Of a DNA stretch of 64,000 bases, positions 33,613 to 34,980 are shown in pieces. This DNA comes from Patescibacteria group bacterium. GTDB taxonomy: Bacteria > Patescibacteriota > Minisyncoccia > Phycocordibacterales > UBA12079. The translations under genes and the position numbers were made by a program. The stretch is from the NCBI GenBank assembly GCA_018817595.1, contig JAHITU010000024.1, forward strand, positions 11,155 through 75,154. The letters run 5' to 3'. The notes beneath the pieces were generated by a model. It searched no databases. It was not told the origin of the DNA and was given only the letters and a program-made list of their open reading frames with translations. The number at the start of each line of letters is the position of its first letter. The stretch's first letter is position 1.

Positions 33613-33888
33613 TTGCAAAAAACCGAAATATAAATATAATAGTCATCAGCAGTTCAAGAGAGGCTGATGGTCCAGCAAAAGGCGAGGTCCGAATCTCGGG
33701 GACAATACTCCCTTTAAACTCTCTTTTTCTTCGATCAAGACAAGTCTGGTTGCCGAGGTCATTCCCTAAAATGACTGACGGTCTCCAAAGGCACCCCGCA
33801 ACAATAGTGGTGTCTACATCGCAATCAAACCATCTTGATCAAATCCCTCTTGGATACCTTTTCACGGTATCCTAGAGGGATTTTTTTT
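33613..33888 (+). ncRNA. Candidate small RNA 1: promoter TTGCAA-N16-TATAAT (33613-33640), about 240-nt transcript, terminator 33845-33888
   Basis: Good -35/-10 match. GC-enriched structured body (ggctgatggtcc..gaggtccgaatctcgggg). Ends with a 14-bp interrupted stem ccctcttggatacc/ggtatcctagaggg followed by T8. Stop codons in all frames. Confidence 0.45.
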
Positions 33889-34207
33889 ATCTATTTTCTT
33901 ATTTTTCAAAGGACGAAGCCTCGCTTCGTCCTTCTTCTTCACCCTAAAAAGTTAAACCCAAATAAAATACAGACATTAAAATTTTTAATGAAGAGTTACT
34001 GTCTTTTGCTTTAGCAAAAGGAAAATTTCACCCGACCCATACTCCCACAACAAAGAATATTTGTATAATATGGTTTTTAAAATGGTTGGGCTTGGGTTTG
34101 GATCCTGCCTGCCCACGCCTGCCGGCGCGCAGGGGTAGGCAGGTTTAAAAACATATTATACAAATATTCTAACAACTCATTTTATCCACAACTTCTTTTA
34201 AAATTTC

Positions 34208-34500
34208 TTGACTTTTATTTAAATATATTATATCCTTATATTTAGAAATAAAGGTAAATACAATTTCCGGGAGAATAGATGAAAAGGATTTATAGTACCT
34301 TTTCACAACAACAACTTTATAATTTCTCCCAAATGACCTCTCCTTTAGAGTCTTTCCTCTTCGGGAGTAAATGCATTCGAAAATGTTTTCATGAGAACAT
34401 TTTCATGTATAAGGAATTATAGCCAATTCCTTGTATAGCTGAATAGGTCATAATACCCCCAAAGATGTCTGGTGAACATCATGCGGGGGTATTTTATTTT
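34208..34500 (+). ncRNA. Candidate small RNA 2: TTGACT -35 at 34208-34213, a structured body of about 250 nt, terminator 34453-34500
   Basis: Internal hairpins gaaaatgtt/aacattttc and tataaggaatt/aattccttgtata. Terminator ataccccc...gggggtat followed by a T-rich tract. Confidence 0.35.
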
Positions 34501-34547
34501 ATGTTATTTAGTAATTTAAATTTATATTAATTAATTTTTAAAAATCC

Positions 34548-34771
34548 TTGCAAATACCGATCATCTATTGTACTATACAGAAAGACATCAAGGAAATATA
34601 TGAATATATCTATTCTATAATATCCTTGATTTAAAATAAAGAGGAGCGCCCGTCGCCGGAGAACGAACCATCGACCATTGCCAACCGGCATCAAGGCACA
34701 ACAGGAACTAGTGCCCACGGACCATCCCCTCTTACCCTCTCAGACCTACAAAGTTTGGGAGGGATTTTTTT
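34548..34771 (+). ncRNA. Candidate small RNA 3: promoter TTGCAA-N17-TACTAT (34548-34576), GC-rich body of about 190 nt, terminator 34734-34771
   Basis: Body includes hairpins gccgg...ccggc and ggcac..gtgcc. Terminator accctctc...gggaggga followed by T7. The overlapping minus-strand 63-aa ORF is judged spurious. Confidence 0.4.
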
Positions 34772-34777
34772 ATCCAC

Positions 34778-34980
34778 TTGCAATTTATTTGAAATAATAT
34801 AATATTTAGAAAGTGTTATCGCGGTTGAGTAATCAAATCAAGTACTGATTCTCAACAATATAAGAGGAATTCGTATCCGAATAGGAATTGCTAAAACGGA
34901 CCATAAGTGTGTTTTCATTTTCTTTTACACTTGCGAAAATTTACCCTCGACCCTCAACTACATAGTTGGGGGTTTTTATT
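34778..34980 (+). ncRNA. Candidate small RNA 4: TTGCAA -35 at 34778-34783, body of about 170 nt, strong terminator 34950-34980
   Basis: Hairpins gttgag..ctcaac and aagtgt..acactt. Terminator ccctcaact-acat-agttggggg, followed by tttttattttt. Confidence 0.4.

What the first reader, a model, noticed from the sequence alone, without database searches (positions are those of the whole stretch)
33613..34980. Gene-free 1.6-kb locus with four consecutive plus-strand promoter-terminator units (candidate structured small-RNA cluster)
Between two minus-strand protein genes, the plus strand carries four units in series. Each starts with TTGCAA/TTGACT -35 and TATAAT-like -10 elements, at 33613-33640, 34208-34236, 34548-34576 and 34778-34803. 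Each ends 170-250 nt later at a GC-rich stem plus U-tract terminator, at 33845-33888, 34453-34500, 34734-34771 and 34950-34980. The bodies are GC-enriched and hairpin-rich, and closed in all reading frames. Essential structured RNAs (RNase P RNA, SRP RNA, tmRNA, 6S) are not otherwise evident in this window, and I could not match these units to their consensus by eye. They may be divergent versions of those RNAs or novel sRNAs.
Basis: seen in the sequence. Interest (0 to 1): 0.7.

Follow-up and report, generated by a model that had tools for sequence, protein, structure and literature searches.

The report
Island of novel small-RNA genes
A 1.65-kb gene-free gap in a tiny candidate-phyla-radiation (Paceibacterota) genome carries three, probably four, separate small non-coding RNA genes that match no known RNA family. 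Three of them are conserved with compensating base-pair changes in related genomes, but what they do is unknown.

Summary
Window 33505-35151 has no ORF above 63 aa. Its plus strand carries four promoter-to-terminator units, opposite to every neighbouring gene.

The housekeeping-RNA idea fails. Rfam finds nothing at gathering score in the whole window, and no RNase P, SRP, tmRNA or 6S match in the locus even at E<=10. ARAGORN finds no tmRNA.

The "novel sRNA" idea is supported. Protein-anchored retrieval of the same locus from related Paceibacterota MAGs recovers:
- unit 1 in 4 genomes;
- unit 2 in 6 genomes;
- unit 3 in 3 genomes.

In each case the promoter position, the terminator and the helices are kept. 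Unit 1 domain 1 has 11 of 23 pairs with double changes, and the unit 3 core has 7 of 20. Unit 2 folds into the same four-way junction in 5 of 6 homologs. No ORF is conserved in any unit.

The units occur in different orders and combinations. Four other relatives lack the island altogether. Unit 4 is an orphan.

The spacer between units 1 and 2 holds two small dispersed repeats.

My verdict is a modular island of new, lineage-restricted structured sRNA genes. Function and expression are untested. A trans-acting regulatory role is an inference only.

The parts
33611..33640 (+). Unit 1 promoter: CCTTGCAA -35 (33613-33618), 16-nt spacer, TATAAT -10 (33635-33640)
   Evidence: Read and listed (10 of 12). 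The same CCTTGCAA-16-TAT(A/T)AT arrangement occurs upstream of the unit 1 homologs in L106, L112 and L123.
33647..33888 (+). Unit 1 RNA, about 240 nt. Domain 1 (33653-33729) is helix P1 enclosing hairpin H1 (GCUG-AUGGUC-CAGC) and a stem with inner hairpin H2. Domain 2 (33733-33841) is closed by GAUCAAGA/UCUUGAUC. The terminator is 33844-33888.
   Evidence: Fold z = -6.1. Homologs in L106, L112 and L123. Domain 1 on a MAFFT alignment: 93.4% of cells paired; 11 of 23 pairs changed on both sides, against 3.7 +/- 1.4 in shuffles and 2-3 in slid controls. Model R1 scores 78-101 bits on the four copies and at most 18 bits elsewhere. The terminator stem also covaries.
33889..34207 (.). Spacer, not a fifth conserved unit. 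It holds hairpin 33909-33935, a ~125-nt dispersed repeat (about 33936-34050), and a long inverted repeat (arms 34054-34080 and 34144-34170) enclosing a GC-rich REP-like palindrome (34104-34143).
   Evidence: Inverted repeat I1. The repeat matches window 29056-29190 in opposite orientation. The GC-rich palindrome occurs three times in the window against 0 expected. The orthologous spacer in L106 is about 210 nt shorter and lacks both elements.
34208..34236 (+). Unit 2 promoter: TTGACT-17-TATCCT
   Evidence: 9 of 12. A TTGNNN-17-TAnnnT pair sits at the same place in all five homologs, and the first 20-30 transcribed nt (AUUUAGAAAU...) are conserved.
34243..34500 (+). Unit 2 RNA, about 255 nt. 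It has a 5' hairpin domain and a central four-way junction (34330-34455). The junction is closed by AUGACCU/AGGUCAU and has conserved single-stranded GCAU and GCUGAA segments. The terminator is 34454-34499.
   Evidence: Fold z = -6.8. Homologs in L106, L003, L112, L123 and L127. Independent MFE folds give the same junction architecture in 5 of 6 homologs although the hairpin sequences differ. RNAalifold on L112/L127/L123: 17 of 59 pairs with compensatory change. The 47-aa ORF (34279-34422) is lost in the closest relative.
34548..34576 (+). Unit 3 promoter: (CC)TTGCAA-17-TACTAT
   Evidence: Equivalent -35/-10 pairs in L106 (TTGCAA-17-TATTTT) and L003 (TTGCTT-17-TATATT). CCTTGCAAA occurs only twice in the window, at units 1 and 3.
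34583..34772 (+). Unit 3 RNA, about 190 nt. It has a 5' hairpin (34586-34630) and a core (34636-34735): P1 AAGAGG/CCUCUU, P2 CCGU/ACGG, P2a GCCGG/CCGGC with the invariant loop AACCAUCGAC, P3 GGCAC/GUGCC, and the invariant junction CACGGAC. The terminator is 34735-34772.
   Evidence: Fold z = -4.8. Homologs in L106 (84 bits) and L003 (31.5 bits, E = 5e-5) found with a model built from the window sequence alone. 96.7% of cells paired; 7 of 20 pairs changed on both sides against 2.4 in shuffles and 0-2 slid, on a model-fitted alignment. The L003 copy folds the same way on its own.
34778..34806 (+). Unit 4 promoter-like site: TTGCAA, then TAATAT at 16 nt (or TATAAT at 14 nt), then the TTTAGAAAG start region shared with other units
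   Evidence: Read. Below the 9 of 12 threshold. No ortholog available to test conservation.
34810..34983 (+). Unit 4, an orphan candidate sRNA of about 170 nt. It has a 5' hairpin (34824-34856), AAGAGGA ... ACGGACCAU ... ACCCUC, and a terminator at 34951-34980.
   Evidence: Fold z = -3.7. Terminator found. No homolog in any fetched locus. L106 has an unrelated unit in this slot. Similarity to unit 3 is not significant (z = 1.75) and model R2 does not detect it.
34984..35156 (.). Tail of the gap: a small hairpin (34994-35014), a conserved palindromic stretch AAACGTAAGTACAGGCGTACGTACGT (about 35045-35075), and the bidirectional terminator of the surface-protein gene (35110-35156)
   Evidence: I2: 23-nt perfect arms. 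About 80% identity to L106 over 84 nt.

Best explanation
The gap is a modular island of small non-coding RNA genes.

What each unit is. Each unit is its own transcription unit on the plus strand. It has a sigma-70-type promoter, a structured body of 170-260 nt and a Rho-independent terminator. It is transcribed against the direction of all neighbouring genes and converges on the 3' end of a giant surface-protein gene.

What was shown.
- Units 1, 2 and 3 are three unrelated, previously undescribed RNA families kept under selection for their secondary structure in a small clade of Paceibacterota.
- Unit 4 is a lineage-specific addition.
- The island gains, loses and reorders units between genomes.
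- The spacer between units 1 and 2 has picked up two small dispersed repeats.

What is inferred. The RNAs are stable trans-acting RNAs, either riboregulators or protein-binding RNAs. They would act through the few invariant exposed segments: the AUGGUC loop of unit 1, the AACCAUCGAC loop and CACGGAC junction of unit 3, and the GCAU and GCUGAA junction strands of unit 2.

What is not known. Actual expression, targets and partners.

The confidence given is for 'conserved structured sRNA genes of new families' (units 1-3). The trans-acting regulatory mechanism on its own would deserve about 0.3.
For: Noncoding and structured. There is no ORF above 63 aa and no ORF shared among homologs in any frame. 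The fold z-scores run from -3.7 to -6.8.

Orthologous islands. They were recovered through the flanking proteins:
- L106: same 1651-bp gap, with units 1, 2 and 3 at 82-85% identity;
- L003: unit 2, and unit 3 behind a small ORF;
- L112: unit 2, a small ORF, and unit 1;
- L123: unit 2 and unit 1;
- L127: unit 2 plus three other units.

Selection. Against L106, unit 1 domain 1 is 92% identical and the unit 3 core 90%. Fourfold-degenerate sites of the flanking genes are 53-81% identical.

Covariation.
- Unit 1 domain 1: 11 of 23 pairs with double changes, 0 of 500 shuffles as high, slid controls 2-3.
- Unit 3 core: 7 of 20, 0 of 500 shuffles as high.
- Unit 2: the same four-way junction from independent folds, and 17 compensatory pairs in a three-sequence RNAalifold.
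- Terminator stems covary.

Strand. G-U pairs replace A-U or G-C pairs in helices on the plus strand only. T-tracts follow the stems on the plus strand.

Promoters. The -35 and -10 hexamers are kept at the same spacing in the homologs.

Clustering. Four plus-only terminators lie within 1.14 kb of a minus-strand gene region.
Against: - There are no expression data, so the transcript ends are inferred from sequence.
- Only 3-6 distinct sequences exist per family, and the closest pair (window and L106) are close relatives (L10 96% identical). The covariation rests on one to three divergent genomes per unit.
- The unit 3 counts come from a model-fitted alignment, which leans towards the structure.
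- Unit 4 has no comparative support at all.
- Promoter-like hexamers are not rarer than chance in this AT-rich DNA.
- No target, chaperone or partner was identified. The regulatory mechanism is pure inference.
- In L003 and L112 a small ORF sits upstream of the unit 3 position. There the unit 3 RNA may be a 3'UTR element rather than a free-standing sRNA.
Confidence: 0.75

Rival explanations
1. The units are divergent copies of the universal structured RNAs (RNase P RNA, SRP RNA, tmRNA, 6S RNA).
For: None of these RNAs is found elsewhere in the 64-kb window. CPR genomes are known, from general knowledge, to carry unusual versions of conserved RNAs. The units are structured and conserved.
Against: - No match to any of the four families even at E<=10 in the locus, nor at E<=0.01 in five homologous islands.
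- ARAGORN finds no tmRNA.
- The units are 170-260 nt, and bacterial RNase P RNA is longer than 300 nt.
- The predicted and covariation-supported folds are multi-branched, not the rod with a central bubble of 6S or the SRP domain IV hairpin.
- The island is missing from the same locus in L002/L129, L004/L132, L135 and L137.
- Unit order differs between genomes.
Confidence: 0.03
2. The units are mRNAs for very small proteins, or decayed remnants of such genes, and the structure is incidental.
For: - Unit 2 has a 47-aa ATG ORF with a GGGAGAA site upstream.
- Unit 1 has an SD-like AAGAGAGG 3 nt before an AUG, an arrangement kept in all four homologs.
- In L003 an 81-aa ORF with a good AAGGAGA site lies between the unit 3 promoter and the unit 3 core. 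L112 has a homologous small ORF there.
Against: - ORF position, length and sequence are not conserved in any unit.
- The 47-aa ORF is gone in L106, which is about 80% identical in DNA.
- The reading frame behind the unit 1 AUG is frameshifted in L106 and stops after two codons in L123.
- Substitutions follow base-pairing rules, not codon positions.
- The 81-aa protein is an orphan with no other relative among 5.8 billion proteins and no Pfam family.
Confidence: 0.06
3. The gap is debris of mobile or repetitive DNA (MITE- or REP-like elements, or a remnant of an integrated element), not a set of functional genes.
For: - The island is present or absent, and reshuffled, between close relatives.
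- The spacer 33889-34207 does contain two dispersed repeats found elsewhere in the window.
- One assembly breaks inside the palindrome.
Against: - Units 1-4 are single-copy in the window. In about 390 kb of related loci they occur only at the orthologous position.
- They have no terminal inverted repeats.
- They keep promoters and terminators, and they covary.
- There is no integrase or transposase nearby.
- There is no similarity to phage or plasmid records or to IMG/VR contigs beyond chance.
Confidence: 0.08
4. The units are cis-acting parts of the neighbouring genes, such as a long 3' or 5' UTR, or antisense regulators of the surface-protein gene.
For: The last unit points at the 3' end of the 1332-aa gene. 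The island always lies between that gene and the small membrane-protein gene.
Against: - The units are on the strand opposite both neighbours and overlap neither gene.
- Each has its own terminator.
- A strong bidirectional terminator (35110-35156) separates unit 4 from the gene.
- Relatives keep both genes without the island.
Confidence: 0.03

Closest known systems
Free-standing bacterial sRNA genes with their own promoter and Rho-independent terminator, including tandem same-strand clusters (Listeria LhrC1-4, Vibrio Qrr, streptococcal csRNAs; cited from general knowledge)
   Same: Size of 170-260 nt. Own sigma-70-type promoter and intrinsic terminator. No conserved ORF. Intergenic location. 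Several genes in series on one strand. Narrow lineage distribution and rapid turnover.
   Different: The known tandem clusters are paralogs of one family. Here units 1, 2 and 3 are unrelated to each other. The bodies are large multi-helix folds rather than a short seed plus terminator. The host is a CPR bacterium, and four searches of the held paper library found no report of sRNAs in this group.
C-rich-motif sRNAs of Firmicutes that pair with Shine-Dalgarno sequences (RsaE/RoxS type; general knowledge)
   Same: Units 3 and 4 carry CCCCUC or ACCCUC stretches just upstream of the terminator, and a second CCCUC forms the 5' arm of the terminator.
   Different: The first C-rich stretch is paired in cis with a 5' AAGAGG (helix P1, supported) rather than exposed. 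No Rfam match. No target was tested.
6S RNA, bacterial SRP RNA, RNase P RNA and tmRNA
   Same: Stable, structured, independently transcribed non-coding RNAs.
   Different: No covariance-model match, the wrong size or architecture, and a patchy presence at the locus.
3'UTR-embedded sRNAs (general knowledge)
   Same: In L003 the unit 3 core lies directly after the stop codon of an 81-aa ORF and shares its promoter and terminator.
   Different: In the window and in L106 the ORF is absent. A 45-nt hairpin precedes the core instead, so the RNA core is the constant part.
REP- or MITE-like dispersed palindromic repeats (applies to the spacer only)
   Same: A GC-rich imperfect palindrome in AT-rich intergenic DNA, with three copies in 64 kb.
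   Different: This applies to 33889-34207 only, not to the four units.

Membership tests
Bacterial RNase P RNA (Rfam RNaseP_bact_a/b) | Covariance-model match. Length above about 300 nt, with the conserved P4 core | tested here: not met
   No hit at gathering score in the window, nor at E<=10 in 33450-35200. The units are 170-260 nt.
Bacterial SRP RNA (Bacteria_small_SRP / large_SRP) | Covariance-model match. Domain IV hairpin with a GNRA-type tetraloop and conserved internal loops | tested here: not met
   No hit. The unit 1 hairpin GUCC-GAAUCUCGG-GGAC has a 7-9-nt loop that varies between homologs.
tmRNA | tRNA-like domain plus a tag-peptide reading frame | tested here: not met
   ARAGORN finds no tRNA or tmRNA gene in the window. 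No Rfam hit.
6S RNA | About 180-200 nt forming a long irregular helix with a large central bubble. Rfam 6S match | tested here: not met
   No hit even at E<=10. The MFE and comparative folds are multi-branched: a three-way core in unit 3, a four-way junction in unit 2, and two domains in unit 1.
Generic free-standing bacterial sRNA gene | Own promoter and intrinsic terminator on one strand, outside coding sequence | tested here: met
   Promoter and terminator positions are conserved in the homologs of units 1-3.
Generic free-standing bacterial sRNA gene | No conserved ORF | tested here: met
   with the by-eye comparison of the sORFs.
Generic free-standing bacterial sRNA gene | Sequence and structure conserved, with compensatory changes | tested here: met
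   Units 1-3. Unit 4 is not met, because no homolog exists.
Generic free-standing bacterial sRNA gene | A discrete transcript is detected | not testable with these tools
   No transcriptome data are available here.
CsrB/RsmZ-type protein-sponge RNAs | Many GGA motifs in hairpin loops, and a CsrA/RsmA protein in the genome | tested here: inconclusive
   The unit 3 P3 loop keeps GGAA in all three homologs, and ACGGAC is invariant, but there are only a few such motifs. tblastn finds no CsrA, Hfq, ProQ or KhpA in the 64-kb window, which is a small part of the genome.
C-rich anti-SD sRNAs (RsaE/RoxS type) | Unpaired C-rich motifs that pair with mRNA ribosome-binding sites. Rfam match | tested here: not met
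   No Rfam hit. The CCCCUC stretch of unit 3 is paired within P1. Targets were not tested.

The most novel reading that the evidence does not exclude
The island may encode an interacting RNA set rather than independent regulators.

The observations behind this reading:
- The invariant hairpin loop of unit 1 (GAUGGUCC, 33666-33673) is the exact complement of GGACCAUC in the invariant junction of unit 3 (34719-34726).
- Unit 4 has GGACCAU.
- A separate structured element at 4270-4440 carries UGGUCCGU on its minus strand.
- ACGGACCA occurs three times in the window, all on the plus strand, against 0.33 expected.
- The 5' part of unit 1 looks like a ribosome-binding site plus start codon.
- The 3' strand of unit 3 looks like an anti-Shine-Dalgarno 16S tail.

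Taken together, the RNAs could form a sponge/target or translation-initiation-mimic circuit in an organism with no known sRNA chaperones.

The evidence does not exclude this, but it hardly supports it. Full-length duplex energies are not better than shuffles, and no covariation between the two sites could be tested.
Probability: 0.1. Interest if true: 0.7.

Novelty: new member of a known kind. Interest (0 to 1): 0.48.

Why it matters
CPR/Patescibacteria genomes are tiny and densely coded. Almost nothing is known about RNA-based regulation in them. Four full-text searches of the held paper library (PMC open-access subset and bioRxiv) found no report of sRNAs in this group.

A 1.65-kb stretch kept free of protein genes holds three structured RNA families under purifying selection. 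It reshuffles between close relatives, next to a giant variable surface protein. This suggests that these episymbiont-type bacteria do invest in regulatory or protein-binding RNAs.

The finding gives three concrete motifs, each with a structural model, that can be searched for, probed and followed in metatranscriptomes. The known distribution is narrow, six MAG lineages, and the function is unknown, so the present value is as a lead rather than a result.

Tried and rejected
1. Exact-pattern scan of JGI metagenome contigs for the unit 3 motif (GCCCGTNGCCG-N5-9-AACCATCGA) gave 83 hits. All are chance matches inside coding sequence of contigs with 47-72% G+C.

2. Three IMG/VR pattern scans for unit 1, 2 and 3 motifs returned only chance hits, checked with models R1 and R2 and by eye.

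3. blastn of the whole gap against phage and plasmid collections found no match.

4. The 81-aa ORF of L003 was used as an anchor. It is an orphan protein whose only match is itself.

5. The single-sequence covariance model for the unit 2 junction (R3) was too weak to align distant homologs. It found L106 only, and L127 at E = 0.86. Unit 2 structure therefore rests on independent folds and a three-sequence RNAalifold.

6. MAFFT could not align unit 3 or unit 2 structurally across the distant genomes.

7. Unit 4 as a paralog of unit 3: local alignment z = 1.75, and not detected by R2. Rejected as unproven. The X1 unit of L127 is likewise not demonstrably related.

8. RNA-RNA duplex prediction between units is not better than shuffles. 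An earlier script timed out.

9. tblastn for CsrA, Hfq, ProQ and KhpA in the window found nothing, which is uninformative for the whole genome.

10. Two last contig look-ups (P0029, P0020) returned contigs that stop before the locus.

11. A diversity-generating-retroelement template was considered and dropped. There is no reverse transcriptase nearby, and the gap has no similarity to the 3' end of the surface-protein gene.
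Full report
**Setting.** The window comes from a Paceibacterota (CPR/Patescibacteria) genome. It is 32% G+C. It carries SecY, ribosomal proteins L10 and L7/L12, aminoacyl-tRNA synthetases, FtsK and several giant surface proteins, and almost all genes up to 47 kb are on the minus strand. The finding lies in the 1647-bp gap 33505-35151. On one side is a 141-aa membrane-protein gene (33079-33504, minus). On the other is a 1332-aa LTD/beta-helix protein gene (35152-39150, minus).

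**The observation.** It is correct.

- No ORF in the gap exceeds 63 aa.
Only two reach 9 of 12 in the consensus scan, and such matches are not rarer than chance in AT-rich DNA (20 against 16.1 +/- 4.1).
- The four terminators are real. Two pass the simple scan (7 sites against 1.8 expected). All four pass an energy-based scan I wrote (33844-33888, 34454-34499, 34735-34772, 34951-34980).
- That scan found only five other plus-only terminators in the whole minus-strand part of the window.
- The bodies fold much better than shuffles: z = -6.1, -6.8, -4.8 and -3.7.
- GC enrichment is true for units 1 and 3 (46% and 44%) but not for units 2 and 4 (34-35%).
- An independent Logan assembly reproduces the left half exactly.

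**Known families.** None fits.

- Rfam 15 has no match at gathering score anywhere in the window.
- With permissive filters on 33450-35200, the only hits are terminator or palindrome look-alikes far below threshold. None is to RNase P, SRP, tmRNA or 6S.
- ARAGORN finds no tmRNA.
- The same holds for five homologous islands.

The housekeeping-RNA reading is therefore not supported.

**Finding relatives.** One genome-collection scan with L10 gave 21 related loci. Protein searches with the 141-aa protein and with L10, followed by contig look-ups, gave more. The locus (surface-protein gene, gap, small membrane-protein gene, then L10 and L12) is syntenic, but the gap varies.

| Locus | L10 identity to window | Gap | Content |
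|---|---|---|---|
| L106 (identical in five assemblies) | 96% | 1651 bp | units 1, 2, 3, then an unrelated fourth unit |
| L003 (identical in six assemblies) | 78% | 910 bp | unit 2; an 81-aa ORF followed by the unit 3 core |
| L112 | 85% | 1169 bp | unit 2; a homologous small ORF; a run of N; unit 1 |
| L123 | 83% | 778 bp | unit 2; unit 1 |
| L127 | 84% | 1672 bp | unit 2 plus three other promoter-terminator units |
| L002/L129, L004/L132, L135, L137 | 71-82% | about 100-220 bp | no units |

The units therefore behave as independent modules that are gained, lost and reordered.

**Unit 1 (33647-33888).**

- The CCTTGCAA-16-TAT(A/T)AT promoter is kept in all four homologs.
- Domain 1 (33653-33729) consists of P1 (AAGAGAG/CUCUCUU) enclosing hairpin H1 and a stem (AAAGG-GAG/CUC-CCUUU) with inner hairpin H2.
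- On a plain MAFFT alignment of the four sequences, 93.4% of cells pair. Eleven of 23 pairs change on both sides, against 3.7 +/- 1.4 in column shuffles (0 of 500 as high) and 2-3 when partners are slid.
- H1 keeps its loop AUGGUC while its stem reads GCUG/CAGC, GUUG/CAAC and GCUA/UAGC.
- H2 changes from GUCC/GGAC to GUCUU/AAGAC.
- The closing helix of domain 2 changes from GAUCAAGA/UCUUGAUC to GGUCAAGA/UCUUGACC.
- The terminator stem covaries.
- Several changes go through G-U pairs, which fit only the plus strand.
- Model R1 scores 78-101 bits on the four copies and at most 18 bits elsewhere in 395 kb.

**Unit 2 (34243-34500).** This is the most widespread unit, in 6 of 6 islands.

- The promoter and the first 20-30 nt are conserved.
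- The centre is a four-way junction closed by (A/G)UGACCU/AGGUCA(U/C).
- It has three hairpins whose sequences differ completely between lineages.
- It has conserved single strands (...GCAU... and ...GCUGAA...).
- Independent MFE folds recover this architecture in 5 of 6 homologs.
- A three-sequence RNAalifold has 17 of 59 pairs with compensatory change.
- A model built from the window sequence alone was too weak to align the distant copies, so this unit lacks a formal pair count.

**Unit 3 (34583-34772).**

- A 5' hairpin precedes a 100-nt core with P1 (AAGAGG/CCUCUU), P2 (CCGU/ACGG), P2a (GCCGG/CCGGC) and P3 (GGCAC/GUGCC).
- CGCCCGU, the P2a loop AACCAUCGAC and the junction CACGGAC are invariant.
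- A model built from the window sequence alone finds L106 (84 bits) and L003 (31.5 bits, E = 5e-5) and nothing else.
- On that model-fitted alignment 96.7% of cells pair, and 7 of 20 pairs change on both sides, against 2.4 in shuffles and 0-2 slid.
- P2a becomes GCCGAU/AUCGGU and P3 becomes AGUAUC/GAUACU in L003. The L003 copy folds the same way on its own.

**Unit 4 (34810-34983).** It has a plausible promoter, a 5' hairpin and a good terminator. It has no homolog in any locus, and L106 carries a different unit in that slot. Its resemblance to unit 3 (AAGAGGA ... ACGGACCAU ... ACCCUC) is not statistically supported (z = 1.75; not found by R2). I treat it as a probable but unproven sRNA gene.

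**Coding and selection.**

- No ORF is shared among homologs in any frame.
- The 47-aa ORF of unit 2 is absent from L106.
- The frame behind the unit 1 AUG is shifted in L106 and stops after two codons in L123.
- Between the window and L106, the RNA cores are 90-92% identical and whole units 82-85%. Fourfold-degenerate sites in the flanking genes are 53-81% identical.
- In the more distant genomes only the helices and a few loops survive, which is the pattern expected of structural RNAs.

**The spacer (33889-34207).** It is not a fifth conserved unit. It contains three things:

- a hairpin kept in L106;
- a ~125-nt repeat also present, inverted, at 29056-29190;
- a GC-rich palindrome present three times in the window.

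Both repeats are missing from the L106 spacer. The mobile-debris reading applies to this piece only. Units 1-4 are single-copy in all sequence I hold. They have no match in phage, plasmid or IMG/VR data.

**Mechanism.**

- Shown: three conserved structured RNA families with their own promoters and terminators, in a modular island.
- Inferred: they are stable trans-acting RNAs that work through their invariant exposed segments.
- Suggestive but unproven: the unit 1 loop GAUGGUCC is the exact complement of GGACCAUC in unit 3. ACCAUC in the invariant unit 3 loop also complements it.
- ACGGACCA occurs three times in the window, all on the plus strand: in units 3 and 4, and in another structured intergenic element at 4369 (0.33 expected).
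- The 5' part of unit 1 looks like a ribosome-binding site with a start codon.
- Against this, whole-molecule duplex energies are not better than shuffles, and I could not test covariation between the sites.

**Literature.** Four full-text searches found no description of sRNAs in Patescibacteria.

**Verdict.** This is a new, lineage-restricted set of sRNA families in a known general class. It is worth an RNA-seq and wider covariance-model follow-up, and its function is open.

Noticed in passing
window 29451-29490, 34104-34143, 42169-42227; related palindromes near 10895-10915 and in L005 (about 150-175 and 1200-1262): A GC-rich palindromic element (CTGCCCACGCCTGCCGGCGCGCAGGGG.AGGC) is dispersed in intergenic regions of this AT-rich genome. 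It has 3 copies in 64 kb against 0 expected. It looks REP-like. One public assembly (L001) breaks inside the 34104 copy.
   Followed up: partly
window 33905-34050 (+) and 29056-29190 (-): A repeat of about 125 nt is shared by two intergenic regions in opposite orientation: a GACGAAGC hairpin, then AAAAAGTTAAACC...TTTCACCCGACCCA. At 29038-29078 it ends in a plus-strand terminator-like hairpin. It is absent from the orthologous spacer in L106.
   Followed up: partly
window 4270-4480, minus strand: Another sRNA-like element lies here. It has TTGCTT-17-TGnTATAAT (an extended -10), a structured body of about 150 nt, and a strong UUCG-capped hairpin (4283-4312) with a U run. Fold z = -5.5. No Rfam match. 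It carries UGGUCCGU, the complement of the ACGGACCA found in units 3 and 4.
   Followed up: partly
L003 5123-5368 (minus strand of the locus); L112 about 1290-1460 (minus strand): An 81-aa orphan protein sits between the unit 3 promoter and the unit 3 RNA core. It has no Pfam family, and its only match among 5.8 billion proteins is itself. L112 has a recognisably homologous small ORF (AVGA ... M(V/I)I(V/I)DP(F/I)TR) at the same place.
   Followed up: partly
window 35045-35075; L106 (minus strand) about 2380-2410: A conserved palindromic stretch, AAACGTAAGTAC.G.CGTACGTACGT, lies between the last sRNA unit and the terminator of the surface-protein gene. It is kept at about 80% identity in L106.
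   Followed up: no
window 28700-29492, 30177-31027, 39711-40603, 42048-43162, 46727-47526, 53286-54171, 56375-57237: This window has several other stretches of about 0.8-1.1 kb without an ORF of 100 aa or more, which is unusual for a dense CPR genome. Some hold orphan plus-strand terminators (for example 29038-29078) and structured repeats. They may hide small genes or further RNA genes.
   Followed up: no
window 33644-33672 and the homologous 5' ends in L106, L112 and L123: The 5' leader of unit 1 (CAUCAGC, CGUCAGU, UUAGU or AUCCA) can pair with the GCUGAUG / AUGGAU segment as an alternative to hairpin H1 in all four homologs. This is a possible conformational switch. Whether the leader is transcribed depends on the true start site.
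   Followed up: no
L126 versus L127: Two contigs encode an identical L10 protein (P0014) but differ upstream. L127 has the LTD surface-protein gene and a 1.67-kb RNA island. L126 has an unrelated 1175-aa gene and an 831-bp gap without recognisable units. This points to strain-level replacement of the whole region.
   Followed up: no
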